The notes under the pieces were generated by a model, which saw nothing but the letters and a program-made list of their open reading frames with translations, was not told the origin of the DNA and searched no databases. The translations under genes and the position numbers were made by a program. A stretch of 32,000 nt of DNA. Source: Clostridia bacterium (GTDB taxonomy: Bacteria; Bacillota; Clostridia; Christensenellales; Aristaeellaceae). The stretch covers positions 4,612-36,611 of the forward strand of contig JAZLIA010000056.1 of assembly GCA_045617125.1 (NCBI GenBank). The letters are read 5' to 3'. Below are positions 1 through 19,214 of this stretch, in pieces (positions within the stretch are counted from its first letter, which is position 1; each line of letters begins with the position of its first letter).

Positions 1-1204
1 GGATAAAGCCGTTCACGATCGCACCGGCTGCCTGTTCGGAAATATCGCCGTCCCGGGCCAGGTCTTTCATCAGCTCAGCCCGGGTGATCGGGTGTTTAAG
101 AAGCTGATACAGATATGCGCCGGTTTCCGTGAGGCGCAGATGACCGCTGTAATCCCGCTGAAGCTCCGGGGACAAAGCCACCATGTTTATCTTTCCCGTA
201 CGGATCAGACGAGTCCCCTCTTTCAGGCACAGCACGGCATCCTCTGCAAAATGTTCGGGACACCGTTTGGCTGCCTTTTCCGCTTCCTCATTCATCCGGT
301 ATTCTTCCTGCATCTGCTCCGTCTTTTGCTTCGAGCTTTGCTGCTGCTGCAGATAAAGCGAATACTGCTTCTGTGCTTCCCTGATCCCCGCCTGCAAGAC
401 CCGATACTCAGGAAAATCCGCGGCATATTTCCAGAATTCATCACCGAAAGGACGCACATAGGAAAACTTCCACGGTTTTCTGCTTCCGCACCAATGCAGG
501 ATGAGCGTTTCATCCGGGAGCGCTTCTTCTTCCCCAAGGGTAAACTCTTCCAGATTGAAGCGGCGGCTTTCGCATATTCTCACCTGGCGGTAAAACGCCA
601 GGTTCAAAATATCCTGATCGCCAAGCAGCAATCTGTCGCCAAAGCCGTCCGCAATCTGACGGTAGAGATCGGGGGCCAGCTTTTCCCGCTGGGCTTTCAG
701 GTCAAACAGGAGCACACCGGCATTGAAATACACCACATCCTCCGGGAAAATGCCCTGACAGAGGCGGTTATATTTCGTTGTCTCCGAGCCAAGCTCACAG
801 CGGCACGCGGCCATCAGGTTTCCTTCCAGGTCCTGATGGTAAAATTCCTCCAGATCTCCGCGGATCACGAGATCCCCGTCCAGATACAGCACTCTTTCCA
901 CATCGGGCGGCAGAAGCTGAGCGGCAAACAGGCGAAAATAGGTCTCTCCCGTGATCCACGGACAACGCAGCGGCGGAGCACAGGGATCTTCTTCCGTGAC
1001 ATGGATCCATTCCACTTTTGCATGTCCGCTTTTTTCCGCGTCAGCGTTCAAAAGCGCCTTCGCGGTCTGATTCAGTTCGCGGAACATGACAAAAAGGCGC
1101 ACAGGACAGTTATTGTGCGCCAGAAAAGAATGAAACATGACCCTGGTGGGCATAAAATAGTCGTTGTTGACCGCAACTAACAGGTTCAACCATTCCTCTT
1201 TCAT
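1..1204 (-). CDS. GT8-family glycosyltransferase fused to a C-terminal PqqD-like RiPP recognition element (partial; C-terminus lies beyond the window start)
   Basis: Absent from the ORF track because no stop codon lies in the window. Hand translation of the minus strand from ATG 1204-1202 (GGAGGG at 1216-1211, 6 nt spacer) stays open for 401 codons to base 2. GT8 signature blocks: MKEEWLNLLVAVNNDYFMPTRVMFHSFLAHN, YFRLFAAQLLP, VLYLDGDLVIRGDL (DxD), YFNAGVLLFDL, GDQDILN, ILHWCGSRKPW. A Q/E-rich linker follows, then HLRLTETGAYLYQLLKHPITRAELMKDLARDGDISEQAAGAIVNGFI, which reads like a PqqD/RRE winged-helix domain. The + strand ORF 92..1180 is its antisense shadow. Confidence 0.8.
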   Translation of the reverse strand, partial: MKEEWLNLLVAVNNDYFMPTRVMFHSFLAHNNCPVRLFVMFRELNQTAKALLNADAEKSGHAKVEWIHVTEEDPCAPPLRCPWITGETYFRLFAAQLLPPDVERVLYLDGDLVIRGDLEEFYHQDLEGNLMAACRCELGSETTKYNRLCQGIFPEDVVYFNAGVLLFDLKAQREKLAPDLYRQIADGFGDRLLLGDQDILNLAFYRQVRICESRRFNLEEFTLGEEEALPDETLILHWCGSRKPWKFSYVRPFGDEFWKYAADFPEYRVLQAGIREAQKQYSLYLQQQQSSKQKTEQMQEEYRMNEEAEKAAKRCPEHFAEDAVLCLKEGTRLIRTGKINMVALSPELQRDYSGHLRLTETGAYLYQLLKHPITRAELMKDLARDGDISEQAAGAIVNGFI

Positions 1205-1232
1205 CAGAATCCCTCCGGTATTGATGATGTTA

Positions 1233-1265
1233 CCGCCCCGGAACGCATTCCGCTTTCCGGGGCGG
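1233..1265 (-). promoter_or_regulatory. GC-rich stem-loop between the last precursor gene and the glycosyltransferase gene (no U-tract; candidate attenuator or mRNA-processing/stability element)
   Basis: Perfect 10 bp inverted repeat, ccgccccgga (1233-1242) and tccggggcgg (1256-1265), with a 13 nt loop. It sits in the 112 nt gap between the stop at 1317 and the ATG at 1204. No T-run follows on either strand. Confidence 0.55.
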
Positions 1266-1316
1266 ATCTGACATTTCCAGCTGCTGCCTTTCTACGCCGG
1301 GATCAATGCGTTATGT

Positions 1317-1499
1317 TTACTGATCATCAAGATGACAATAATTGGACGGTATAAAACGTAACTGTTTCATTTTGTTGTTATTCGTAAAGATAGCGCCCCC
1401 GCTTACCTGCTCCAGTTCTTCTTCCGTCAGCTCCGCAAGCTTAACCTTCAATGCATGAAGTTCTTCCTTAAGGGCATCCAGTTCCTGCCTGGTTTTCAT
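1317..1499 (-). CDS. RiPP/bacteriocin-like precursor peptide P1 (60 aa; double-glycine leader 1499..1395, core AIFTNNNKMKQLRFIPSNYCHLDDQ)
   Basis: ORF track peptide MKTRQELDALKEELHALKVKLAELTEEELEQVSGG|AIFTNNN... GGAGGAA RBS at 1512-1506. The leader is near-identical to the two upstream paralogs and the core is unrelated. ELxxEELEQVSGG matches the double-glycine leader consensus. Confidence 0.8.
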   Translation of the reverse strand: MKTRQELDALKEELHALKVKLAELTEEELEQVSGGAIFTNNNKMKQLRFIPSNYCHLDDQ

Positions 1500-1517
1500 T
1501 GTTCATTCCTCCATCAA

Positions 1518-1700
1518 TCAAAGATATCTGAATTTTCCCTCTTCAACTATGCCTTTTATGTCTTTCACGCTCTTGCCCGTGAAGACAGCGCCTCCGCTCA
1601 CCTGCTCCAGTTCCTCTTCCGTCAGCTCCGCGAGCTTATCCTTCAATGCATAAAGTTCTTCCTTAAGGGCATCCAGTTCCTGCTTTGTCTGCATCATCAT
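1518..1700 (-). CDS. RiPP/bacteriocin-like precursor peptide P2 (60 aa; leader 1700..1590, core AVFTGKSVKDIKGIVEEGKFRYL)
   Basis: MMMQTKQELDALKEELYALKDKLAELTEEELEQVSGG|AVFTGKS... GGAGGAATG context directly upstream. It shares a 111 nt stretch, identical by manual comparison, with P3 that covers the leader plus AVFTG. Only 18 nt separate it from the P1 start. Confidence 0.8.
   Translation of the reverse strand: MMMQTKQELDALKEELYALKDKLAELTEEELEQVSGGAVFTGKSVKDIKGIVEEGKFRYL
1573..1683 (-). repeat. 111 nt direct repeat, copy A (leader-coding part of P2)
   Basis: The string ttgcccgtgaagacagcgcctccgctcacctgctccag...catccagttcctgc is identical base for base, by manual comparison, to 1952-2062. A diverged third copy lies at about 1393-1499 in P1, with a handful of substitutions. 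Confidence 0.9.
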
Positions 1701-1815
1701 TCCTCCATCCTGTTTTTATGGTCCATCTGCATATACGAAAATGATCCTCATGGCGGCCAGTCGGATATGAAGAATGATGATTTTTTCTTCCCGAAGGTCT
1801 TCCGCCCCGATCTTA

Positions 1816-2073
1816 TCATCTTTTTATAAACTCATTTTCATCCGTGCCCTCAAGCTTATTATTCAGCTTTCCCTTTGCATTAGGCTCGATCAGCTCATCT
1901 TCAAGATAAAGAAAACCGAGCGGGCCCGCAAGGAGATTTTTTATTCTGGTATTGCCCGTGAAGACAGCGCCTCCGCTCACCTGCTCCAGTTCCTCTTCCG
2001 TCAGCTCCGCGAGCTTATCCTTCAATGCATAAAGTTCTTCCTTAAGGGCATCCAGTTCCTGCCTGGTCTTCAT
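1816..2073 (-). CDS. RiPP/bacteriocin-like precursor peptide P3 (85 aa; leader 2073..1969, 50-aa core AVFTGNTRIKNLLAGPLGFLYLEDELIEPNAKGKLNNKLEGTDENEFIKR)
   Basis: MKTRQELDALKEELYALKDKLAELTEEELEQVSGG|AVFTGNT... AAAGGAGGAA RBS at 2090-2081. It is the first gene downstream of a near-consensus promoter at 2236-2208. Confidence 0.8.
   Translation of the reverse strand: MKTRQELDALKEELYALKDKLAELTEEELEQVSGGAVFTGNTRIKNLLAGPLGFLYLEDELIEPNAKGKLNNKLEGTDENEFIKR
1952..2062 (-). repeat. 111 nt direct repeat, copy B (leader-coding part of P3)
   Basis: Identical to 1573-1683. Identity stops 2 nt after the AVFTG codons on one side and at leader codon 4 on the other. Weaker homology, roughly 70% by eye, continues about 80 nt upstream of both genes (1701-1780 versus 2074-2150). 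Confidence 0.9.
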
Positions 2074-2207
2074 CGTTCATTCCTCCTTTAAATATCATTG
2101 TGGTCCCATGATATATACGAAGATGGTTGATAGGATGGCTGATCGGTATAAAACTTTTTTCAGGATCATGTTCTTTTCCGTTTTTCCGCACCGATCATTC
2201 CGCCTTG

Positions 2208-2236
2208 ATTATACCACTTATATTTCCCCATTGCAA
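2208..2236 (-). promoter_or_regulatory. Sigma-A type promoter driving the precursor array (-35 TTGCAA, 17 nt spacer, extended -10 TGGTATAAT)
   Basis: The minus strand reads gcaTTTGCAAtggggaaatataagtggTATAATcaagg. The -35 is at 2236-2231 and the -10 at 2213-2208. The ROK stop codon (2220-2218) lies inside the spacer. The predicted 5' UTR to the P3 ATG is about 125 nt. Confidence 0.55.
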
Positions 2237-3363
2237 ATGCCGCTCATATACCTGCGGGTCAGATAAATGCCCGCGCCGATCGCGGCAGAATCATCCGTAT
2301 ACAGGCTGGTTCTGATCCTGACCTTTTCGCAGTCGAACGGGCATTCCGCCTGCACCATCCTTTCAAGCAATTCCACATCCGAAGGGAGCATATAGCGAAG
2401 CAGATACCCGCACAGCACATATTCCGTGTCCATCAGCATGCGGATGTTGCTGATGGTCAGCGCCAGATCATGCAGATATCTATTCCACACCGCCGCAGCC
2501 TTCTTATCCCCCGCACGCAGCTTGATAAAAAAATCCCGCAGCTTTTCTCCGGCATTCCTCTGCAGGGCATAGGCGGAGCAGTACGCCTCTATGCAGCCTT
2601 TTTTTCCGCAATAGCACTTTTCGCCGCCGGGATACAGGCACATGTGCTCGATCACGCTGCTGCTCAGCTCAATGCCCTGATATACCTTTCCGTTCACAAT
2701 GACCGCGCCGCCGAAATACCGGTTCAGATACAGCAGTACGGCATCCTTCATATCCTTCTGGATCCACGATTCCGCAAGCGCGGATGCCTCCGTATCATGC
2801 ATCATGGAGCAGGGATACGGGATGCAGCGTTCAAACTTCTCCAACAGCCTTTCTCCGCTGCATTCGAGGATCCTGCCGAACAGGAGCGAACCGCCGTCCC
2901 TGGAAACCAGCCCCTGTATCGCTATAGACACGCCCAGCACCTGCCCTTTTTCCGGATGAAGCTGCAAAAGCTGGCTCTCCGTCACTTCCGCGATCCTTTC
3001 GAAATAATCGTCCGTGCAGGAAAACATCCTCTGCTCATCAAAGGATCGCAGGGGCTTTCCGTACAGATCCACCACGACCACATGAAAGTATTCTTTTTGT
3101 ACGGCAATGCCCACAGCCACTTTTTTCGCAGCGGCAAACTGATACACCCTTGCTTTTCTGCCGCCGGTGGAATGATACATCCCCGTGCGCAGGATCATTC
3201 CCTGTTCCTCCCACAGCTTCAGGTTTTGGCTCACCGTGGGAAGGCTCATTTTCAGTTCCTGCGCGATCTGCTGTTTGGAAACCCCTTCCGATCCATACAC
3301 ATATCTGAGCAGCCGCAGCGAGTTTTGCTCTCTGACATCGGCGGTGGACAGTGTCTCCCCCAT
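2218..3363 (-). CDS. ROK-family transcriptional regulator (NagC/XylR-like)
   Basis: 381 aa. N-terminal wHTH (VSKQQIAQELKMSLPTVSQNLKLWEEQGMI), a sugar-kinase-like fold, and the ROK zinc motif CYCGKKGCIEAYCS. Confidence 0.85.
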   Translation of the reverse strand: MGETLSTADVREQNSLRLLRYVYGSEGVSKQQIAQELKMSLPTVSQNLKLWEEQGMILRTGMYHSTGGRKARVYQFAAAKKVAVGIAVQKEYFHVVVVDLYGKPLRSFDEQRMFSCTDDYFERIAEVTESQLLQLHPEKGQVLGVSIAIQGLVSRDGGSLLFGRILECSGERLLEKFERCIPYPCSMMHDTEASALAESWIQKDMKDAVLLYLNRYFGGAVIVNGKVYQGIELSSSVIEHMCLYPGGEKCYCGKKGCIEAYCSAYALQRNAGEKLRDFFIKLRAGDKKAAAVWNRYLHDLALTISNIRMLMDTEYVLCGYLLRYMLPSDVELLERMVQAECPFDCEKVRIRTSLYTDDSAAIGAGIYLTRRYMSGICNGEI

Positions 3364-3467
3364 GCGCTACCCCATCCCTTATATCATATTCTTTGTTTAA
3401 TCTATCATATTTCTATAAGAAAGACAAGCCGTAATGACGCATCTGAAACAGAAACGCGAAATGACTC

Positions 3468-3497
3468 TTGACTTTTTCCAAATTTCAGTGATATGAT
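3468..3497 (+). promoter_or_regulatory. Candidate sigma-A promoter for the dehydrogenase pair (-35 TTGACT, 18 nt spacer, extended -10 TGATATGAT)
   Basis: TTGACT at 3468-3473 and TATGAT at 3492-3497, preceded by TGA. It lies in the divergent intergenic region between the ROK gene and the first dehydrogenase. Confidence 0.45.
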
Positions 3498-3562
3498 AGT
3501 TTAGATTTGAAAAGCATTTTTACAAAAGTTCTTGCTTTGCCAGTTTGAAAGGAGACCCTATC

Positions 3563-4597
3563 ATGTTACAGCAGGTGATGACAGCCCCCGGAAAGATCCT
3601 TTTCAGAGAGATCGAAAAGCCCCAGCCCGCAGCGGACGAGGTGGTCGTCCGGATCATGAAGATCGGCGTATGCGGAAGCGACATCCATGTTTATCACGGA
3701 AAACACCCCTTCACCAAATATCCGGTCACGCAGGGACACGAAGTTTCCGGAAAGATCGAAGCTCTCGGCAGCGCCGTCACCGAATTCCGGATCGGTCAGA
3801 AGGTCACGATCGAGCCTCAGGTCTATTGCGGAAAGTGCTATCCCTGCACGCACGGCAAGTATAACCTGTGTGAGGAGCTGAAAGTGATGGGGTTCCAGAC
3901 CACCGGCACCGCCAGCAAATATTTCGCCGTGAAAGCGTCCAAGGTGACGCCTCTTCCTGAAAGCATGACCTATAACGAAGGCGCGATGATCGAGCCACTG
4001 GCCGTCACGGTCCACGCAGCCAAACGGGCCGGCGACATAAAGGACAAAAAGATCGCCGTGCTGGGCGCGGGCCCCATCGGCATCCTGCTTGCGCAAAGCG
4101 TAAAAGCGCTCGGGGCAAAGGAAGTGCTGATCACCGATATCAGCCCCTTCCGTCTGCAGCTTGCGAAGACCTGCGGAGCCGATCATGCCGTGAACACGCG
4201 TGAAGAGGATTTCGGCGAGGCGCTCATCCGCTGCTTCGGTCCTGACAAGGCTGATGTGATCTACGACTGTGCGGGCAACGACATCACCATCAACCAGGCG
4301 ATCCGCTGTGCAAGAAAGGGCAGCACCATTATTCTGGTCGCAGTCTTCGCAGACATGGCAAAAGCGGACATGGCCGTGCTCAACGATCATGAGCTGGACC
4401 TGAACAGCAGCATGATGTACCGCCATGAAGACTATGTTGAAGCCATCCGCCTTGTTAATGAGGGCAGGATCCAGCTGAAACCGCTTATGAGCAAGCACTT
4501 TGCATTTGCTGATTACGCGAAGGCATATCAGTTTATCGACGCTAACCGTGAAACCACCATGAAGGTGCTCATCGACGTTGATGACAGTGAAGAATAA
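3563..4597 (+). CDS. Zn-dependent alcohol/polyol dehydrogenase (MDR family, sorbitol/threonine dehydrogenase-like)
   Basis: GVCGSDIHVYHG, GHEVSGKIEALG, structural-Zn lobe CGKCYPCTHGKYNLC, NAD fold VLGAGPIGIL. I prefer ATG 3563 (AAAGGAG 8 nt upstream) over the TTG at 3545 used by the track. Confidence 0.85.
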   Translation: MLQQVMTAPGKILFREIEKPQPAADEVVVRIMKIGVCGSDIHVYHGKHPFTKYPVTQGHEVSGKIEALGSAVTEFRIGQKVTIEPQVYCGKCYPCTHGKYNLCEELKVMGFQTTGTASKYFAVKASKVTPLPESMTYNEGAMIEPLAVTVHAAKRAGDIKDKKIAVLGAGPIGILLAQSVKALGAKEVLITDISPFRLQLAKTCGADHAVNTREEDFGEALIRCFGPDKADVIYDCAGNDITINQAIRCARKGSTIILVAVFADMAKADMAVLNDHELDLNSSMMYRHEDYVEAIRLVNEGRIQLKPLMSKHFAFADYAKAYQFIDANRETTMKVLIDVDDSEE

Positions 4598-4656
4598 AAA
4601 TAAATCAGCAGGACCGCAAGACCGCATGCAAACGCATGCTGAAAGGAGATGCTCCC

Positions 4657-5685
4657 ATGAGAAGCTGCTACTATCTTGGAAACAGGCAGTTTGAGGTGCG
4701 TGAAGAGCCCGTTCCTGCCCCCGGGGCGGAGGAAGTGCTGGTAAAGGTGGATTCCTGCGGCGTCTGCGGCACTGATGTTCACATTTATCACGGCGATAAG
4801 GGCTCTGCCGAGGTGATCCCTCCCGTGGTGCTGGGACACGAGTTTGCCGGCACGGTAGTGAGCGTAGGAAGCCGGGTAACCGGCTTGAAAGCAGGGGATC
4901 ATGTGACGGTGGATCCCAACATCTACTGCGGAAAATGTCACTATTGCCGCATCGGCAAAAAACAGCTGTGTGAAAATCTGTACGCCATCGGCGTCAACCG
5001 CAACGGAGGCTTCGCGGAATACTGCGTTGCCCCGGAGACCCAGTGTTACCTTCTTTCCCCCGAAGTGCCCCTCGAATACGGCGCCATGGCAGAACCCCTC
5101 GCCTGCTGCCTGCACGGTATCGAACAGGCAGGCATCTGCCCCGGCAGCACGGTATGCGTGCTGGGCGGCGGCGCGATCGGCCTGATCATGGTGCAATTGG
5201 CCCGCCTTTCCGGCGCGTCAAAAGTGATTCTGAGCGAACCGGTGGAAATGCGAAGGAACATCGGGCTTGAATTGGGAGCCGACGCGGCGGTCGATCCCAT
5301 CCATGAGGATCTGCCCGCCCGTGTGCGGGAATTGCTCGGCACGCCAGGCCCCGATGTGGTGATCGAGTGCGTCGGCAACCCTGCCGCTGCACAGCAGGCC
5401 CTGAGCATCGTAAAGCGTGGCACCGCCGTGCTCCTGTTCAGCGTGCCCCAGGCCGGGACCTCGGTTTCCCTTTCGCTGGACGATGTGTACCACAAGGAGC
5501 TGAAGATCACAGGCTCCCTCATCAATCCCGACACTCATGGCCGTGCCGCCGCGCTGATCAACAGCGGATGCATCCGCCTGGACTGCATCGAGACGCATAC
5601 TTTTCCCATTGAAAAGCTGGAAGACGCGATTTTGATGCAGCAAAGCAACGAATCGCTGAAGGTTCTGGTAAAACCCGGCCTCTGA
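4657..5685 (+). CDS. Zn-dependent alcohol/polyol dehydrogenase (MDR family), paralog of the preceding gene
   Basis: GVCGTDVHIYHG, GHEFAGTVVSVG, CGKCHYCRIGKKQLC, VLGGGAIGLI. ATG 4657 has GAAAGGAG upstream; the track start at 4636 lacks an RBS. Confidence 0.85.
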   Translation: MRSCYYLGNRQFEVREEPVPAPGAEEVLVKVDSCGVCGTDVHIYHGDKGSAEVIPPVVLGHEFAGTVVSVGSRVTGLKAGDHVTVDPNIYCGKCHYCRIGKKQLCENLYAIGVNRNGGFAEYCVAPETQCYLLSPEVPLEYGAMAEPLACCLHGIEQAGICPGSTVCVLGGGAIGLIMVQLARLSGASKVILSEPVEMRRNIGLELGADAAVDPIHEDLPARVRELLGTPGPDVVIECVGNPAAAQQALSIVKRGTAVLLFSVPQAGTSVSLSLDDVYHKELKITGSLINPDTHGRAAALINSGCIRLDCIETHTFPIEKLEDAILMQQSNESLKVLVKPGL

Positions 5686-5695
5686 TAACATAAGC

Positions 5696-5739
5696 AAAAA
5701 CCGTCGGCCCCTCTGTTTGCAGGCACGACGGCTTTTTTT
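5696..5739. terminator. Probable bidirectional intrinsic terminator between convergent genes
   Basis: aaaaaCCGTCGgcccctctgtttgcaggcaCGACGGcttttttt: an A-run, a 6 bp outer stem (5701-5706 / 5726-5731) with possible inner pairing, then T7. The stem is short, so confidence is moderate. Confidence 0.5.
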
Positions 5740-8116
5740 ATTCGATCCACCTCAGCTTCAGTTTTTCCGGGTCCACCGCCCGGTCCGCCGTGATCACACG
5801 CGCTTCTCCGGGATAAAGGCTGAACCAGTTATCCGAAAAGCGGGTCTCTCCCGCATCCAGCTCCACACCCAGGCAGAAGGCATCGGAAGAAACCGTGACC
5901 GTGTTTCCTTCGCAGCAGGCATTCACATGGGGCACAGTGAAACGGAAATGCTTGGGAAGCGCATTCAGCGCCTCATTTTCACTCACGGTTTTGCCCGCTC
6001 CGTCCGTAAGCACACAGCGTACCACAGGCAATTCTTCCCCAGCCCCTGGCATCACGGAAGCGGCCACAGAGGAGGAAAGCGCACAGCAGCTCACCTTCTG
6101 CCGGGTTTCCCTCAGGATGCTTCCCCGCTCATCACACACCCGCAGGATCAGCTCGCCCGAAAAAGGCTCGCGGGTCTCGTTGGCGATCACGGCTTTCCAG
6201 CCCTTTCCATCCGGCTGCAGGCTGATCATCACAGGGGCGAAAAACCTGGCGGCCTTATATTGCAGCGCCTTCAATCGCCCCAGGCTATCCACACTGGACC
6301 AGCTTGCCACCGGCCAGCAGTCATTCAGCTGCCAGTAGATCGCCCCCATGCAGCGGCCGCGATTCCGCCGCCAGTGCTCCACACCGGCCCGCATGGCCTC
6401 CGCCTGCAGATACTGGGTGGCATGCACTAGCTTTTCCATTGAGAAAGGATAGCGGAGCGTCTGCGACAGATAAAACAGCATCGTCGCATTTCCGCTCAGG
6501 CATTTCTGATGGGATTCCATCACTTTGGAAAAGGGGTTCATTTCCTTTTCATCATGGATAAAGGTGTTCAGCGTGTCCATACAGGGGAAGGATTCAAAGC
6601 CGAATTCCGAGCAGAAACGGGGATAACGCTCCGAATAGTCCGAGAAAGGACGGCGGCCGTGCCACACGGACCAGTCATGCACATCGCCCCGCGCAAGGTC
6701 ATTCGGGTCATCAAAGCCGCCGCCGGAAGAAGGAGAAGACGGCCAATAGAAGGAATCCGGCGCTTCCTTTACACACACTTCCTTCAATACCTTTTCAAAC
6801 TGCAGAGTATACTGATTTTTCAGTTCCTCCGATTCCGATGCCACGCTATCCCAATCCAGCCAGCCTTCCTCCATCTCATTATTGCCGCAGATAAGGCCCA
6901 GGCAGGCATGGTGACGAACACGGCGCAGGTTATCCTCCGTTTCCCGAACGATGTTTTCCCGGAAGGCATCGGTCATCTTGTATACATTGCAGGCATACAT
7001 CAGATCCATCCACACGACCAGACCCATTTCATCGCACAGGTCAAGGAAATCCTCTCCGGGATAAATGCCGCCGCCCCACACACGAATGCTGTTGAAATGG
7101 GAATCCCTGCAGATCTGAAGCAGCTTCCGCGTCTTTTCACGGTTAAGCCGGGTAAGCAAATTATCCTCCGGGATATAATCGGCCCCCATTGCGAAGAAAC
7201 GAACGCCATTGACGCAGAACGCAAACTCGCTGCCCCATTCATCCCTGTCCGTTTTCACCGTCATGGTTCTCAGGCCAATGCGCATCGTTTTTTCATCCCG
7301 GATCTCATTTTCGTCCAGCGCCTGCACCGTGAGGGTATAGAGCGGCTGATCCCCCAGGCCGTTCGGCCACCAGAGCCTCGGCTCCATCACCCGGATGCAG
7401 GCCGTTTCACCCGCGGGAACGGTGATTCCGGTCAGTTCTTTTCCATCCGGATCGGAAAGGGCAGTCCGAAGCAGCTTTGCCCCGGTATCCGCCTGAACAG
7501 AAAGCTCAACGATCCCGTCATGATGCTCCTGATGAACGCAAACCTGCTCAACACGCACATCATAAGCCTCCATATACACCTCCCGCCAGATCCCCGCATC
7601 CGGAAGGCGGGGGCCCCAGTCCCAGCCAAACATGTAATGAGCCTTTCTCAAAGCGCCGGTCCACTTCAGGTCGCTCCCGCCCTCATAGGTCACATCCGGG
7701 TTTTCCTCCGCTGCCTTTTTTACGAAGGGAACTGCGGGATAAAACGTGATCTTCAGATGATTGGCTCCCACCCTGGCTTGATCCCGGATGGAAAATCTCC
7801 AGGTCCTGTGCATATTCTCGGTGTGGGCAAGAAACACGCCGTTCAACTCAATATCCGTGATCGTGTCAATGCCCTCAAAAACCAGATCAAGATGGGACAA
7901 AAGAAGATCCTCTTTAGTCAGCAGGATCTCCCGTTCAAACGTATACACCTTATCGAGCATCGCACACACGCTTTGCTCGTTCATTTCATCAAAGGGGTCC
8001 GGGATCTCTCCCTGACAAAGCAATGTCGAAAGCACCGTTCCGGGCACCTGAGCAGGCCAGGAGCGTCCTTCCTCATTCGTCATGAGCCAGGATCCGCCAA
8101 GATCCGTCTTTTTCAT
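5738..8116 (-). CDS. Glycoside hydrolase family 2, beta-mannosidase-like
   Basis: 792 aa. N-terminus GSWLMTNEEGRSWPAQVPGTVLSTLLCQGEIPDPF, acid/base region CGNNEMEEGW and nucleophile region FCSEFGFESFP are typical of GH2 beta-mannosidases. No signal peptide. RBS GGGAGG upstream. Confidence 0.8.
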   Translation of the reverse strand: MKKTDLGGSWLMTNEEGRSWPAQVPGTVLSTLLCQGEIPDPFDEMNEQSVCAMLDKVYTFEREILLTKEDLLLSHLDLVFEGIDTITDIELNGVFLAHTENMHRTWRFSIRDQARVGANHLKITFYPAVPFVKKAAEENPDVTYEGGSDLKWTGALRKAHYMFGWDWGPRLPDAGIWREVYMEAYDVRVEQVCVHQEHHDGIVELSVQADTGAKLLRTALSDPDGKELTGITVPAGETACIRVMEPRLWWPNGLGDQPLYTLTVQALDENEIRDEKTMRIGLRTMTVKTDRDEWGSEFAFCVNGVRFFAMGADYIPEDNLLTRLNREKTRKLLQICRDSHFNSIRVWGGGIYPGEDFLDLCDEMGLVVWMDLMYACNVYKMTDAFRENIVRETEDNLRRVRHHACLGLICGNNEMEEGWLDWDSVASESEELKNQYTLQFEKVLKEVCVKEAPDSFYWPSSPSSGGGFDDPNDLARGDVHDWSVWHGRRPFSDYSERYPRFCSEFGFESFPCMDTLNTFIHDEKEMNPFSKVMESHQKCLSGNATMLFYLSQTLRYPFSMEKLVHATQYLQAEAMRAGVEHWRRNRGRCMGAIYWQLNDCWPVASWSSVDSLGRLKALQYKAARFFAPVMISLQPDGKGWKAVIANETREPFSGELILRVCDERGSILRETRQKVSCCALSSSVAASVMPGAGEELPVVRCVLTDGAGKTVSENEALNALPKHFRFTVPHVNACCEGNTVTVSSDAFCLGVELDAGETRFSDNWFSLYPGEARVITADRAVDPEKLKLRWIE

Positions 8117-8327: not shown

Positions 8328-9599
8328 CTACGCATTCAGCCAGTTTTTCCTGTGATAATCTTCCGCCTCAAAGCCTTCTTTATCGATCACGGTATACGGA
8401 AAGGATAAGTCTTTCAAAGCATCCAGAAAAAAGGAAAAAGCCTCATCCGTTTTCAATATATTGCTAAGACTCAATATGCATTTGTCCTTTATACAATAGC
8501 TGACCAGGTAAAGCCCGGTTGCTCCTCTTGCACCGCAGTAAGTATCAAAATTCTCTATATACGGAGCAATATCTCCTAAGTTCAGCACTCTCTGATAGGT
8601 CAGCGTCGGCGTAGAATTGCGTCCGACGGCATAAGCGGTTTTGATATCTTCGATGGTATCGGCTTGCCGCACAATGCACTCAAAATCGGTTTTTTTCTTT
8701 TCCATCACCTGAAGCAGGTATTCTTCCGATATCTGCAGCTTCAGCATTTCTTTCAAACAGCTTAACTGCCGGGCCAACGGCATATTCTGAAATGTCATGG
8801 GATAAACGAATCTGGCATCGGTACAGCAATTCTGCAAGGTGTCCTTACAGCCGAGTATGATGCGCATATCGACGGGGCAATTGACTATAAAAGGCCTGTC
8901 TTCGGAGGGATACAATTTCCGTATCGTTCGGATCAGGATCATCGCCAGCACAGAGGAAACGCTGCTTTGGGCTTCTGTGCTGAGCGACAGGATCTCTCTT
9001 GCGGGAATATAAACACGCAGCCTGCGGGATCGCACTCCAATCTTTTCTTTCTCAAAGAAAAAGCCGTCAGAGAGGGGCATGGAATGCTTCTCATCCACAG
9101 AAACGGCATATCGATAAGGATTTACATATTCATTCGCACCCGGTTTGCTGCCAGGGCACAGTTCTCCCGGAACATGCAATTCTTTTCCCGTTGCTCTGCG
9201 AAGGTATTCCGCTGCCAGTGACAGTGTAAAACGAACGGCTCCTACCGCATCCGTCAGTGCATGATGGATAGAAACATATACCGTATCGCCGCCGTACGCT
9301 ATCAGTAAAAGGAAACCGCAGTTCCTTTCATCGTTGAAAAGTACGTAGCCTTCATTTTGAAGAACGGGAAAAGTATCTTTCGTCTGCCTCAAAGCATAGA
9401 TGCCGTTTCTGATCTCCCTCTTTCTGATAAAATACGGGCAGCGTTCCGCCATCGCATCTGCAGCGGCGCGAAGATGTGCGGAGCTGATCATTTCTTTTGT
9501 GGAAAAGCATTGGAAAATATGCACCGTTTCGTCTTCATAATACAGGAATCTGTCACCCGGAGACGGGACAGGATCATTGATCAAATGAGATTTATTCAT
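8328..9599 (-). CDS. Stand-alone condensation-domain-like / HHxxxD acyltransferase superfamily protein (function unknown)
   Basis: 423 aa, the size of one NRPS C-domain or PapA5/WS-DGAT-type enzyme. Contains IHHALTDAVG (residues 111-120, coordinates 9269-9240), resembling the HHxxxDG catalytic motif. GGAGAA RBS. The gene and its flanks are visibly more AT-rich than the neighbours. Confidence 0.5.
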   Translation of the reverse strand: MNKSHLINDPVPSPGDRFLYYEDETVHIFQCFSTKEMISSAHLRAAADAMAERCPYFIRKREIRNGIYALRQTKDTFPVLQNEGYVLFNDERNCGFLLLIAYGGDTVYVSIHHALTDAVGAVRFTLSLAAEYLRRATGKELHVPGELCPGSKPGANEYVNPYRYAVSVDEKHSMPLSDGFFFEKEKIGVRSRRLRVYIPAREILSLSTEAQSSVSSVLAMILIRTIRKLYPSEDRPFIVNCPVDMRIILGCKDTLQNCCTDARFVYPMTFQNMPLARQLSCLKEMLKLQISEEYLLQVMEKKKTDFECIVRQADTIEDIKTAYAVGRNSTPTLTYQRVLNLGDIAPYIENFDTYCGARGATGLYLVSYCIKDKCILSLSNILKTDEAFSFFLDALKDLSFPYTVIDKEGFEAEDYHRKNWLNA

Positions 9600-18443: not shown

Positions 18444-19214
18444 TTACGGATGTTGATATGCAGAAAAACTGAACATGGGTTCCCGGTTCGCCAGTGCGAT
18501 CCATTCTCTGAGAGAGGAAAGCTGCTCCGCGCTTCCCACGCACTGGAAAAACGCTCCGCCTTCACAGCCACACACCCCGCCTCCGGCCACCAGATGCGGC
18601 TCGCAGCCTGTGAGAGAATGGATCGCGTCCAATTCTGTAAACACCGTGCCAAAGGACGGCGCCAGCCTTTCCCCCACCGCATCCGGTGAATTACATAACA
18701 GACAAAGCCGGGAAATGGGTTCGTATACCCGTTTCTCCACGCCCACCGGAGTAATGAGCTTTGCACGCCTTCCCACCACGGCCCGGTAGATCACGCCCAT
18801 CGTGCCGGAGGTGGGGTTGCCTGCCAGCACGGCGGCTTCACCGGTTTGCAGATTGACCGCGTTGGCCCCCTTGAAAATCAGGTCTCCCTCCTGCAGGGCA
18901 TCGCCCACATCATGGATCGTGGCTCCCTTCTGCCACACACCGTGATCAATGACCACATCGCCCTTCACTCTTTTGAGGCTCCCGGGGATCGCTTCCCGCC
19001 GGATGATACCCCGGAAAAAGCCGTGGATATCAAAATCCCCTTCCCCGATCTGATGCAGAAGTTCCTCGGCCAAATATGCGTTCGTTGTGCCTGCGACCAC
19101 CACCACCCGGCGGTTTTTCATCGCATTCAAAACTTCCTCCTGCCTGGAAAGAGCCAGTGCGATCAGCCTTTTTCCGCCAGCCGGGGTAAGAAACACCTGC
19201 TTGGATTCCGTCAT
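18444..19214 (-). CDS. Hypothetical protein (256 aa), translationally coupled to the biotin carrier gene
   Basis: ATGA start/stop overlap with the upstream gene (19214-19211). I recognise no family. It has a Rossmann-like stretch RRVVVVAGTTNAYLAEELL and a Gly/Cys-rich stretch VAGGGVCGCEGGAFF. Confidence 0.6.
   Translation of the reverse strand: MTESKQVFLTPAGGKRLIALALSRQEEVLNAMKNRRVVVVAGTTNAYLAEELLHQIGEGDFDIHGFFRGIIRREAIPGSLKRVKGDVVIDHGVWQKGATIHDVGDALQEGDLIFKGANAVNLQTGEAAVLAGNPTSGTMGVIYRAVVGRRAKLITPVGVEKRVYEPISRLCLLCNSPDAVGERLAPSFGTVFTELDAIHSLTGCEPHLVAGGGVCGCEGGAFFQCVGSAEQLSSLREWIALANREPMFSFSAYQHP

What the first reader, a model, noticed from the sequence alone, without database searches (positions are those of the whole stretch)
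1..2236. Candidate undescribed RiPP system: three double-glycine precursor peptides followed by a GT8 glycosyltransferase-RRE fusion
Reading the minus strand from 2236 to 1 gives a near-consensus promoter and then three small genes of 85, 60 and 60 aa, each with a GGAGGA RBS. Their first 35-37 residues are almost identical (MKTRQELDALKEELYALKDKLAELTEEELEQVSGG), while the remaining 23-50 residues are unrelated to one another. A GC hairpin follows, and then a GT8 glycosyltransferase whose C-terminus looks like a PqqD-type leader-binding domain. The combination of conserved leader, hypervariable core and RRE-bearing tailoring enzyme is the defining logic of a RiPP cluster. The glycosylated RiPPs I know of (glycocins such as sublancin and glycocin F) use GT2 enzymes and Cys-rich hairpin cores. 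I am not aware of a class built on a retaining GT8 with an in-cis RRE, and these cores carry zero or one Cys. An alternative reading is glycosylated signalling peptides rather than bacteriocins.
Basis: partly seen in the sequence, partly recalled or inferred. Interest (0 to 1): 0.92.

Follow-up and report, generated by a model that had tools for sequence, protein, structure and literature searches.

The report
Peptide genes beside GT8–RRE glycosyltransferase
Three small secreted-peptide genes sit in one operon with a very rare enzyme that fuses a sugar-adding domain to a peptide-leader-binding domain, so this is probably a new way bacteria make sugar-decorated peptides, though the link between these peptides and the enzyme is untested.

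Summary
The minus strand carries a near-consensus promoter, three double-glycine (GG) leader peptide genes with nearly identical leaders, a hairpin, and a 415-aa protein that runs 14 codons past the window edge. The protein is an intact GT8 glycosyltransferase fused to a PqqD-type RiPP recognition element (RRE). The RRE passes Pfam's threshold on the full-length protein, and its model matches solved RRE structures.

The fusion is extremely rare: 7 clusters among 5.8 billion. Every locus I recovered has GG-leader peptide genes beside it. Its closest GT8 and RRE relatives lie in clusters like the recently described linear polyphosphorylated peptide (LPP) clusters, where the two are separate adjacent genes, so it looks like a gene fusion.

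Two caveats:
- **Leader not specific.** The window's leader type belongs to a family of at least 2,407 hypervariable peptides that almost never neighbour this enzyme.
- **Different precursor in the sister clade.** There the enzyme gene overlaps or closely follows a precursor with a different leader and a Ser-rich core (28–48% Ser/Thr). The window's cores have 6–9%.

So "RiPP-tailoring peptide glycosyltransferase" is well supported. "These three peptides are its substrates" is plausible, at about 0.5. I found no published GT8 RiPP enzyme. I rate it a new variant of a known kind, interest 0.6.

The parts
2208..2236 (-). Sigma-70-type promoter TTGCAA-17-TATAAT with extended -10 TG. It overlaps the 3' end of the upstream ROK regulator gene.
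   Evidence: 10 of 12 matches; the only minus-strand site in 1-2400; sequence
1816..2073 (-). pepA, 85 aa. Double-glycine leader MKTRQELDALKEELYALKDKLAELTEEELEQVSGG plus a 50-aa core.
   Evidence: TIGR01847 17.9 bits against cut-off 15.7; leader HMM E 5e-25
1518..1700 (-). pepB, a 60-aa ORF. The probable start is the third ATG at 1694, giving the 58 aa of database entry P0270. Same leader, 23-aa core.
   Evidence: TIGR01847 17.7 bits
1317..1499 (-). pepC, 60 aa (= P0269). Same leader with 2 substitutions, 25-aa core with one Cys.
   Evidence: TIGR01847 16.8 bits
1233..1265 (-). G+C-rich hairpin (11-bp stem) between pepC and the enzyme gene, with no U-tract. Probably a partial attenuator or transcript-stabilising structure, not a full terminator.
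   Evidence: fold; not called as terminator; two uncompensated mismatches in L017
1..1204 (-). GT8-RRE fusion gene: 401 of 415 codons, with the last 14 beyond the window edge. Own RBS GGAGGG at 1216-1211.
467..1183 (-). GT8 catalytic domain (residues 8-246). DxD motif D109/D111 at 872-880. The NAGV, GDQD and H237-x2-G-x2-KPW motifs align with LgtC.
275..412 (-). Predicted long linker helix (residues 265-310) between the two domains, rich in Gln, Glu and Lys.
   Evidence: DSSP of the model; pLDDT about 52-63, so tentative
1..247 (-). PqqD-type RRE domain (residues about 320-415, cut at residue 401 by the window edge). Three beta-strands, then a short extra strand and three helices.

Best explanation
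This is a minimal RiPP-type operon. One promoter drives an array of three double-glycine-leader precursor peptides and, by read-through of a leaky hairpin, a bifunctional tailoring enzyme.

Proposed mechanism:
1. The enzyme's C-terminal PqqD-type RRE binds the leader of a precursor.
2. The RRE presents the core to the N-terminal GT8 domain.
3. The GT8 domain transfers a hexose from a UDP-sugar, with retention of configuration, onto a hydroxyl side chain. The Thr at core position 4, shared by all three peptides, is the obvious candidate.
4. A C39-peptidase ABC transporter encoded elsewhere then cleaves after the GG and exports the glycopeptide.

The enzyme arose by fusing a GT8 gene to the RRE gene that follows it in LPP-like clusters of gut Clostridia, and was then recruited to GG-leader peptides.

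Shown here: the gene anatomy, the GT8 and RRE identities, the intact catalytic motifs, the rarity of the fusion, its constant adjacency to GG peptides, and its kinship to LPP-like clusters.

Inferred: co-transcription, leader binding, the acceptor residue, the sugar, and cleavage and export. The biological role (antimicrobial or signal) is unknown.
For: **Enzyme identity**
- GT8 domain: Pfam E 6e-32. PDB relatives are 3tzt, LgtC and GlyE. The DxD, NAGV, DQD and HxxGxxKPW motifs are all conserved.
- RRE: 7 of 7 family members hit PqqD (best E 3e-9). The model has pLDDT 72-93 over residues 320-415. Foldseek matches TbiB1 with leader (TM 0.79), PqqD (0.75), lasso B1 (0.77), and the RREs of PbtF, ThcOx and MibB.
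- A profile of the C-terminal domain searched against 1.84 billion proteins found only the two fusion clusters below E 1e-10. The other listed hits are mostly roughly 65-130-aa proteins; the eight of these I scanned are all PqqD.

**Association with peptides**
- All eight recovered loci of the fusion (seven distinct), plus the window, have GG-leader peptide genes adjacent. The window's leader type occurs in 4 of the 7 distinct fusion loci when the window is counted and near-duplicates are merged. It occurs 0 times in about 160 kb of related control loci and 0 times in the other 30 kb of the window.
- The same peptide-intergenic-enzyme layout is kept in the 89%-identical relative L017, which has a completely different core.

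**Operon and selection**
- The only promoter-like site lies upstream of pepA, and no terminator was called before the enzyme gene.
- dN/dS between window and L017 is 0.29 overall and 0.43 for the RRE, so the enzyme is under selection in the clade that has only this leader type.

**Origin**
- The next-best GT8 relatives lie beside discrete PqqD genes, or fused to a ScmC/HprK-like domain, in clusters with NTP_transf_5, an S26-like peptidase and peptides bearing the LPP motif (PMC13381572).
- Those discrete RREs score as high against the fused-RRE profile as the best hits in the whole library.

**Export**
- A family member of the peptides lies 2.7 kb from a C39-peptidase ABC transporter pair, which supports GG cleavage and export.
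Against: - The leader family is at least 300 times more common than the enzyme (at least 2,407 clusters against 7). Sampled contexts (L022, L032, L033) have no GT8-RRE, so these peptides normally function without it.
- In the sister clade (P0003-P0007) the precursor directly upstream of the enzyme gene has a different leader (K-x-LNEV-x-x-G...) and a core with 28-48% Ser/Thr. Its gene overlaps the enzyme gene's start in L001 and L019-L021 and ends about 25 nt before it in L002/L003 and L018. The window's cores have 6-9%, against a family background of 10%. The natural substrate type of this GT8 lineage may therefore be Ser-rich and missing here.
- No C39 transporter or other leader peptidase lies in the 30 kb of window upstream, nor in the 1.9 kb recovered downstream of the closest relative's enzyme gene.
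- The enzyme gene is separated from pepC by 112 nt and a strong hairpin, rather than overlapping or closely following its precursor as in the sister clade.
- No expression, binding or mass data exist. The GT8 part of the structural model is poor because the alignment is shallow.
Confidence: 0.5

Rival explanations
1. The GT8-RRE is a genuine RiPP glycosyltransferase, but its true substrate is a Ser-rich precursor of the LNEV-leader type, encoded elsewhere in this genome or lost. On this reading the three window peptides are unmodified, class-II-bacteriocin-like or pheromone-like GG peptides. They belong to a large independent family that merely shares 'peptide islands' with the enzyme.
For: - The leader family has at least 2,407 clusters, nearly all without the enzyme.
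- The sister clade always has an LNEV-leader, Ser-rich precursor directly upstream of the enzyme gene, overlapping its start or ending about 25 nt before it.
- Relatives in LPP-like clusters also have Ser/Thr/Pro-rich cores (27-32%), against 6-9% here.
- MKT-type and LNEV-type peptides coexist in L001 and L021, so co-location does not require a shared enzyme.
Against: - In the window and in L017 no LNEV-type gene lies beside the enzyme. Even so, the enzyme, including its RRE, is intact and under purifying selection.
- The only promoter found drives the peptides and the enzyme together.
- The RRE has diverged more between clades than the GT8 domain (35-40% against 51-54% identity), as expected after a change of leader partner.
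- 4 of 7 fusion loci carry MKT-type peptides within about 1.3 kb, against 0 in about 190 kb of control DNA.
Confidence: 0.33
2. The protein is an ordinary GT8 working on a non-peptide acceptor such as a cell-surface polysaccharide or a glycan primer. Its C-terminal winged-helix domain serves something other than leader binding, and its adjacency to the peptides is a coincidence.
For: - Most GT8 enzymes act on glycans: LgtC, RfaI/J and WbbM were the sequence hits.
- GlyE-type GT8s extend glycans on serine-rich proteins rather than start them (established knowledge).
- The surrounding genes are sugar-metabolic: a ROK regulator, dehydrogenases and a GH2.
Against: - The C-terminal domain passes the PqqD threshold and matches leader-bound RRE structures.
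- Every fused homologue is next to GG peptides, and every close unfused homologue whose context I could recover sits in a RiPP-type cluster with a discrete RRE.
- No polysaccharide-synthesis genes are nearby.
Confidence: 0.05
3. The small ORFs are not real genes. On this reading they are chance ORFs or decayed copies.
For: - pepA is not recorded as a called gene in the protein collection.
- One family member in L001 is frameshifted.
Against: - The ORFs have strong RBSs and intact reading frames.
- Two of the three are annotated in the NCBI record (P0269, P0270).
- Thousands of homologues share a conserved leader and the GG site.
- All three pass TIGR01847.
Confidence: 0.02

Closest known systems
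Glycocins (sublancin/SunS, glycocin F/GccA, thurandacin/ThuS, enterocin F4-9/EntS)
   Same: They are ribosomal peptides with double-glycine leaders that are glycosylated by a dedicated enzyme encoded beside the precursor, then cleaved and exported by a C39 ABC transporter. This is the nearest analogue for how the window's system would work.
   Different: - Glycocin enzymes are predicted GT2 (PMC11912497), which would make them inverting, and I know of none reported with an RRE. Here the enzyme is GT8, a retaining family, with a fused PqqD-type RRE.
- Glycocin cores are helix-loop-helix peptides with two disulfides and are often S-glycosylated on Cys. The cores here have 0-1 Cys and no such pattern.
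- No transporter or thiol-disulfide genes are adjacent.
Linear polyphosphorylated peptide (LPP) clusters (Popov et al. 2026, PMC13381572) and paeninodin-type lasso clusters
   Same: The closest relatives of both the GT8 domain and the RRE lie in LPP-like clusters of Clostridia. These contain NTP_transf_5, an HprK/ScmC-like kinase, a discrete PqqD, an S26-like peptidase, and peptides with the Y-x-x-P...I-x-F-E-T leader motif. The gene order GT8 then PqqD matches the domain order of the fusion.
   Different: - The window has no kinase, NTP transferase, signal-peptidase-like protease or MsbA-type transporter.
- Its leaders are GG-type and lack the YxxP motif.
- The published LPP analysis lists 'Glycos_transf' neighbours but not GT8.
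RRE-glycosyltransferase fusions flagged by RRE-Finder (PMC7470986; PMC12710340)
   Same: They share the design idea of an RRE fused in cis to a glycosyltransferase, predicted from sequence only.
   Different: The family named in the 2025 paper is PF00535 (GT2). Neither paper names a GT8 fusion, a precursor family or a product.
GT8 enzymes that glycosylate proteins: glycogenin, and GlyE/Gly-type enzymes of serine-rich-repeat adhesins
   Same: They share the GT8 fold and motifs, and GlyE (5gvv) is a detectable PDB relative. They show that GT8 chemistry can operate on protein-linked acceptors. Their Ser-rich substrates resemble the Ser-rich cores of the sister clade.
   Different: Glycogenin glucosylates itself on Tyr. 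GlyE extends an existing O-GlcNAc-primed glycan. Neither uses a leader peptide or an RRE. These points rest on established knowledge and were not tested here.
Class II (unmodified) double-glycine bacteriocins and peptide pheromones (ComC, plantaricins, lactococcin G)
   Same: The leader ends in the canonical L-x-x-E-L-x-x-V-x-GG motif and passes TIGR01847. A family member lies near a C39 ABC transporter pair.
   Different: - The leader is unusually long, with a conserved, apparently helical 20-residue N-terminal extension.
- The cores are short (median 21 aa), acidic and hydrophilic, not cationic and amphipathic.
- No immunity gene is apparent.

Membership tests
Glycosyltransferase family 8 (Pfam PF01501 / CAZy GT8) | Profile match above the curated threshold | tested here: met
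   111.6 bits against gathering score 24.3, residues 8-246. PDB relatives 3tzt at E 2e-31 and LgtC at E 6e-28 with the family profile.
Glycosyltransferase family 8 (Pfam PF01501 / CAZy GT8) | DxD metal/UDP-sugar motif and the C-terminal H-x2-G-x2-K-P-W motif aligned with LgtC D103/D105 and H244 | tested here: met
   YLDGDLV aligns with YLDIDVL, YFNAGVLL with YFNAGVLL, GDQDILN with QDQDILN, and HWCGSRKPW with HYCGPAKPW. These positions are invariant in all 7 fusion proteins.
Glycosyltransferase family 8 (Pfam PF01501 / CAZy GT8) | Retaining transfer from a UDP-hexose | not testable with these tools
   Needs enzymology and NMR of the product.
RiPP recognition element (PqqD-like, PF05402) | Profile match above the curated threshold | tested here: met
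   Full-length P0001 scores 24.8 bits against 23.4. The window-truncated copy scores only 18.9. All 7 family members match, best E 3.2e-9.
RiPP recognition element (PqqD-like, PF05402) | Winged-helix fold of three beta-strands followed by three helices | tested here: met
   The AF2 model has pLDDT 72-93 over residues 320-415, with strands 324-327, 331-336 and 339-344, a short extra strand at 356-358, and helices 360-368, 375-386 and 390-406. Foldseek: TbiB1 5v1v TM 0.79, PqqD 5sxy 0.75, lasso B1 6jx3 0.77, PbtF RRE 8t19 0.65.
RiPP recognition element (PqqD-like, PF05402) | Binds the leader of a cognate precursor | not testable with these tools
Needs AF-Multimer/AF3 or a binding assay.
RiPP biosynthetic gene cluster (general definition) | Precursor genes with a conserved leader and a variable core, beside a tailoring enzyme on the same strand | tested here: met
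   The same adjacency holds in all recovered fusion loci.
RiPP biosynthetic gene cluster (general definition) | The enzyme modifies these precursors | not testable with these tools
   Indirect evidence points both ways. For: the association. Against: the leader family is at least 300 times commoner than the enzyme and the cores are Ser/Thr-poor.
RiPP biosynthetic gene cluster (general definition) | Leader peptidase or exporter in the cluster | tested here: not met
   No Peptidase_C39/ABC gene lies among the 20 ORFs scanned between 3.5 and 26.5 kb of the window, nor in the 1.9 kb recovered downstream of L017's enzyme gene. The five ORFs beyond 26.5 kb were not scanned. One is present near a peptide-family member in L033.
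Glycocins | SunS-like GT2 glycosyltransferase | tested here: not met
   The enzyme is GT8, with no PF00535 hit.
Glycocins | Core with two nested disulfides (four Cys) in a helix-loop-helix | tested here: not met
   The cores have 0, 0 and 1 Cys.
Linear polyphosphorylated peptides (LPP) | Core set of SpI-like peptidase, discrete RRE, HprK-like kinase, NTP transferase and MsbA-like transporter | tested here: not met
   None of these was found among the window ORFs scanned, up to 26.5 kb. They are present in relatives L004-L009 and L011-L016.
Linear polyphosphorylated peptides (LPP) | Leader motif YxxPxVLxHQxIxFETxxS | tested here: not met
   The window leaders contain no Pro and no FET. The motif is present in the L004 peptide MQEYKKPEAEVVIFETVDVVATSG.
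Double-glycine 'bacteriocin-type' leader peptides (NCBIfam TIGR01847) | Domain model match above the curated cut-off | tested here: met
   17.9, 17.7 and 16.8 bits against 15.7.

The most novel reading that the evidence does not exclude
A previously undescribed RiPP class. A retaining GT8 glycosyltransferase acquired an in-cis RRE by fusing with the neighbouring PqqD gene of an LPP-type cluster. It now O-glycosylates linear double-glycine-leader peptides. In this lineage it decorates members of a very large, hypervariable and so far uncharacterised family of secreted peptides of gut Clostridia. It would be the first GT8 known to start glycosylation on a ribosomal peptide under leader control.
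Probability: 0.4. Interest if true: 0.75.

Novelty: new variant of a known kind. Interest (0 to 1): 0.6.

Why it matters
- **New enzymology.** Known RiPP glycosyltransferases are few and mostly GT2. A leader-guided retaining GT8 would add new chemistry (alpha-linked O-hexose) and a compact, two-gene, leader-programmable tool for making glycopeptides.
- **Evolution of RiPP pathways.** The link found here shows a discrete RRE being captured by a tailoring enzyme and re-targeted to a different leader family. That is a concrete example of how RiPP pathways diversify.
- **The peptide family.** The peptides belong to a family of thousands of hypervariable double-glycine peptides in gut Clostridia. 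I found no description of this family, and its function (antagonism or signalling) is open.

Tried and rejected
- **Exact-sequence look-ups.** Look-ups of pepA, pepB, the ROK gene and P0001 found no contig. I therefore could not read the roughly 5 kb of the source contig that the window omits, on whichever side it lies. I used the 89%-identical L017 as a proxy instead.
- **Species-representative genomes.** The scan did not contain the window's own genome.
- **Full-length model.** It had a poor GT8 domain because the alignment has only 7 sequences. I relied on profile matches and motif alignment for that domain.
- **Phage origin, rejected.** No relatives of the enzyme or the leader occur in IMG/VR.
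- **Riboswitch or known RNA in the 5' UTR and intergenic regions, rejected.** No Rfam match at E up to 1.
- **Hairpin as a conserved terminator, rejected.** It has no U-tract, and L017 has uncompensated mismatches.
- **The shared 'AVFTG' as a recognition motif, set aside.** The DNA identity simply extends 15 nt past the GG, which points to a recent duplication or gene conversion. The motif is absent from L017 and from the wider family.
- **Literature.** Searches for GT8 with RiPP, RRE with O-glycosyltransferase, and the leader sequence strings found nothing relevant. The library lacks most subscription journals.

Full report
**1. The observation**

- A sigma-70-type promoter, TTGCAA-17-TATAAT with an extended -10 TG, lies at 2236-2208. 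It is the only such site on this strand in 1-2400.
- Three small ORFs follow, at 2073-1816 (85 aa), 1700-1518 and 1499-1317 (60 aa each). Each has a GGAGGA ribosome-binding site.
- The middle gene most likely starts at its third ATG, giving 58 aa, as in database entry P0270.
- At the DNA level the leaders are 95-100% identical over about 110 nt. The sequences then become unalignable. Identity at synonymous sites points to recent duplication or gene conversion, not selection alone.
- The identity runs 4-5 codons past the Gly-Gly (AVFTG, AVFTG, AIFTN), so the cores are not unrelated from their first residue.
- All three peptides exceed the curated cut-off of NCBIfam TIGR01847, the double-glycine bacteriocin-type signal.
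- An 11-bp G+C hairpin at 1265-1233 follows pepC. It has no U-tract and was not called a terminator.
- The enzyme gene starts at 1204 with its own GGAGGG site and runs off the window. The complete protein is in the public collection as P0001, 415 aa, from a 36,959-bp NCBI contig.

**2. The enzyme**

The N-terminal domain (residues 8-246) is a GT8.
- Pfam gives E 6e-32.
- A family profile finds the solved GT8 structures 3tzt, LgtC and GlyE.
- The residues that bind Mn2+ and UDP-sugar in LgtC are conserved. These are the DxD, NAGV and DQD motifs and the His of HxxGxxKPW. They are invariant in all seven members of the fusion family.

The C-terminal domain is an RRE.
- It falls just under Pfam's PqqD threshold on the window-truncated protein (18.9 bits). 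It passes on the full-length protein (24.8 against 23.4 bits). All seven family members match, best E 3e-9.
- An AlphaFold2 model built on the 7-sequence alignment is poor for the GT8 part. It is confident (pLDDT 72-93) for residues 320-415, which form three beta-strands, a short extra strand and three helices.
- Foldseek against the PDB aligns this domain with leader-bound TbiB1 (TM 0.79), PqqD (0.75), lasso-peptide B1 (0.77), and the RREs of PbtF, ThcOx and MibB.

**3. Rarity and relatives**

- Among 5.8 billion 90%-identity clusters, only seven proteins have this GT8-RRE architecture. They are P0001 and P0002 (89% identical to each other) and P0003-P0007 (45-49% identical to P0001).
- A profile of the RRE domain alone was searched against 1.84 billion representatives. 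It found only the two fusion clusters below E 1e-10. The other listed hits are mostly roughly 65-130-aa proteins, and the eight of these I scanned are all PqqD.
- The next-closest GT8 domains (36-42% identity) lie in clusters of uncultured Clostridia/Oscillospiraceae. Those clusters carry an NTP_transf_5 nucleotidyltransferase, an HprK/ScmC-like kinase (separate, or fused to the GT8 as in P0008), a discrete PqqD immediately after or before the GT8, an S26-like peptidase, and a small peptide.
- The peptide in L004 reads MQEYKKPEAEVVIFETVDVVATSG|SANPLPPTSNP. It matches the YxxP...IxFET leader motif of the linear polyphosphorylated peptides (LPP) described in 2026 (PMC13381572).
- The discrete RREs of these clusters score 43-54 bits against the fused-RRE profile. 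The best of them (L004 at 53.7, L013 at 50.0) equal the best discrete hits in the whole library.
- The gene order GT8 then PqqD in L011-L016 is collinear with the fusion.

I conclude that the fusion arose from such a cluster. The LPP paper lists 'Glycos_transf' neighbours but not GT8.

**4. Peptides beside the fusion in other genomes**

Every recovered locus of a fused homologue has double-glycine peptide genes adjacent to it. Two leader types recur.

*Type 1 is the window's 'MKT' leader.*
- It occurs in the window (three copies), L017 (the 89% relative), L001 (two intact copies and one frameshifted) and L021.
- A leader HMM finds it in 4 of the 7 distinct fusion loci, counting the window and merging near-duplicates. 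It finds it nowhere in about 160 kb of LPP-like GT8 loci, nor in the other 30 kb of the window.

*Type 2 is found only in the P0003-P0007 clade.*
- Its leader is K-x-LNEV-(I/V)-x-G-x-x-D-T-E-N-L-M-V-E-V...GG.
- Its gene lies directly upstream of the enzyme gene. It overlaps the enzyme gene's start in L001 and L019-L021, and ends about 25 nt before it in L002/L003 and L018.
- Its core has 28-48% Ser/Thr.
- The LPP-like cores are also 27-32% Ser/Thr. The window's cores have 6-9%, like the MKT family background of 10%.

**5. The MKT-type peptide family**

- A profile of the leader retrieves at least 2,407 distinct clusters, and the candidate list was saturated. These are 40-70-aa peptides with 65-80% identical leaders. 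In the 119 top hits I parsed, the cores are hypervariable, short (median 21 aa) and mildly acidic. One source calls a member 'bacteriocin-like protein'.
- The sampled contexts differ. L032 is an array of three next to the primase and sigA genes. L022 lies among small ORFs, an NlpC/P60 protein and an AAT-like protein. L033 is 2.7 kb upstream of a C39-peptidase ABC transporter pair.
- None of these contexts has a GT8-RRE.
- I found no paper containing these leader strings.
- The family therefore normally operates without this enzyme, and the leader's conservation cannot be credited to this RRE.

**6. Operon and selection**

- No promoter-like site lies between pepC and the enzyme gene, and no terminator was called there. 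Co-transcription from the pepA promoter is the simplest reading, but it is an inference.
- The same peptide, about 120 nt of intergenic sequence, then the enzyme, is kept in L017. There the core is entirely different while the enzyme is 89% identical. The hairpin carries two uncompensated mismatches there.
- dN/dS between the two enzymes is 0.29 overall, 0.31 for GT8 and 0.43 for the RRE. Both domains are therefore maintained in the clade that has only MKT-type neighbours.
- Between the two clades the RRE is 35-40% identical and the GT8 domain 51-54%. This fits a change of leader partner but does not prove one.
- Downstream of the L017 enzyme gene are a cupin-nitroreductase fusion and what looks like a glycoside hydrolase gene, not a transporter.
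- The 20 other window ORFs I scanned, up to about 26.5 kb, are sugar and central metabolism genes. They include a ROK regulator, Zn dehydrogenases, a GH2, NAD salvage genes, an ABC-2 transporter, methylmalonyl-CoA carboxyltransferase, a FGGY kinase and a GH88, with no C39 transporter.
- The organism is an uncultured member of the Clostridia. The best named relatives of the carboxyltransferase, at 56-58% identity, are Clostridia MAGs. The one fused homologue found in a species-representative genome is from 'Candidatus Limivicinus'.

**7. Most likely mechanism**

I think this is a minimal RiPP-type operon.
1. The RRE binds the precursor leader.
2. The GT8 domain transfers a hexose from a UDP-sugar, with retention, onto a hydroxyl residue of the core. 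The shared Thr at core position 4 is the obvious candidate.
3. A C39 ABC transporter encoded elsewhere removes the leader and exports the product.

Confidence differs by step.
- That the protein is a leader-dependent peptide glycosyltransferase: about 0.9.
- That the three window peptides are its substrates: about 0.5.
- The main rival, at about 0.33: the lineage's real substrate is the Ser-rich LNEV-type precursor, which is absent here or elsewhere in the genome, and the MKT peptides are unmodified secreted peptides that share the locus.
- An ordinary glycan-directed GT8: about 0.05.
- Spurious ORFs: about 0.02.

Whether the products are antimicrobial or signals cannot be decided. The hydrophilic, acidic cores are unlike typical class II bacteriocins.

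**8. Comparison with what is known**

- Functionally, the closest analogue is the glycocins. The defining features of glycocins (a GT2 SunS-like enzyme and a four-Cys hairpin core) were tested and are not met.
- Evolutionarily, the closest are LPP-like clusters. None of the LPP core genes, nor the LPP leader motif, is present in the window.
- RRE-glycosyltransferase fusions have been noted in passing by RRE-Finder studies (PMC7470986; PMC12710340, which names PF00535/GT2). Neither paper names GT8, a precursor family or a product.
- A 2025 survey of RiPP glycosyltransferases lists only a few characterised enzymes and names no GT8 (PMC11912497).
- In the held library I found no GT8 RiPP enzyme. 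That library lacks most subscription journals.

**9. Verdict**

This is a new variant of a known kind: a RiPP cluster with an RRE-guided tailoring enzyme, in which the enzyme family, the fusion architecture and possibly the substrate family are new.
- Glycosylated RiPPs and RRE-GT fusions are established concepts.
- The enzyme-substrate link for these particular peptides is uncertain.
- The system is known only from a handful of metagenomic contigs.

Noticed in passing
window 1317-2073 (-); relatives P0271-P0388, L022, L032, L033: The leader MKTKEELNALKEEVETLNKKLAELTEEELEQVSGG defines a very large family. It has at least 2,407 clusters at 90% identity. In the 119 top hits I parsed, the cores are short (median 21 aa), hypervariable and mildly acidic. 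Members often occur in arrays. I found no Pfam or NCBIfam family for the whole leader and no paper containing the sequence. One relative (P0333) carries a precomputed hit to PF28158, which my Pfam copy could not resolve.
   Followed up: partly
L004-L009 (about 1556-8059) and L011-L016 (for example L011 4114-9255): LPP-like RiPP clusters of uncultured Clostridia contain a GT8. It is either fused to a ScmC/HprK-like domain (P0008, 543 aa) or stands alone next to a discrete PqqD. The clusters also carry NTP_transf_5, an S26-like peptidase and a PMT_2-like membrane glycosyltransferase or a GT2. Their peptides have Ser/Thr/Pro-rich cores. GT8 is not among the neighbours listed in the LPP paper. It could be the 'missing partner' that paper postulates for the NTP transferase.
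   Followed up: partly
L001 1237-1464; L002 3932-4201; L018 2259-2567; L019 97-447; L021 1-213: A second precursor family has the leader K-x-LNEV-x-x-G-x-x-DTENLMVEV...GG and cores with 28-48% Ser/Thr. It always lies directly upstream of the GT8-RRE of the P0003-P0007 clade. It overlaps the enzyme gene's start in L001 and L019-L021, and ends about 25 nt before it in L002 and L018. It is absent from the window.
   Followed up: partly
L019 1728-1958 (longest ORF from 1692): A 4Fe-4S ferredoxin-like protein begins with what looks like a double-glycine leader (MRENEMNDEMLGLVTGG...). It lies directly downstream of a GT8-RRE gene.
   Followed up: no
L001/L010 850-1141: One MKT-type peptide gene is split by a frameshift into two ORFs (868-978 and 980-1141). 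This is either a pseudogene or an assembly error.
   Followed up: no
window about 2095-2125 (-) and about 1715-1745 (-): A shared element, TTCGTATAT-N6-GGACCA, lies about 25-45 nt upstream of the ribosome-binding sites of pepA and pepB. It is absent upstream of pepC. It may be part of a duplicated cassette or a regulatory site.
   Followed up: no
P0162 (362 aa, from the profile search): This is another RRE fusion. An HprK/ScmC-like P-loop domain (by eye) is fused to a C-terminal PqqD domain (Pfam E 1.8e-14).
   Followed up: no
window 8328-9599 (-) and 18444-19214 (-): Two long ORFs (423 aa and 256 aa) have no Pfam match at E up to 1e-5. The second lies between the biotin-carrier gene of a methylmalonyl-CoA decarboxylase-like operon and an ABC-2 transporter.
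   Followed up: no
L022 8869-9222 and 11002-12282: Next to an MKT-type peptide array there is a 117-aa protein that joins an ABC ATPase fragment to sigma-70 region 4. There is also a 426-aa predicted secreted protein with a weak AAT (C45-like) match. Prophage genes follow a few kb downstream.
   Followed up: no
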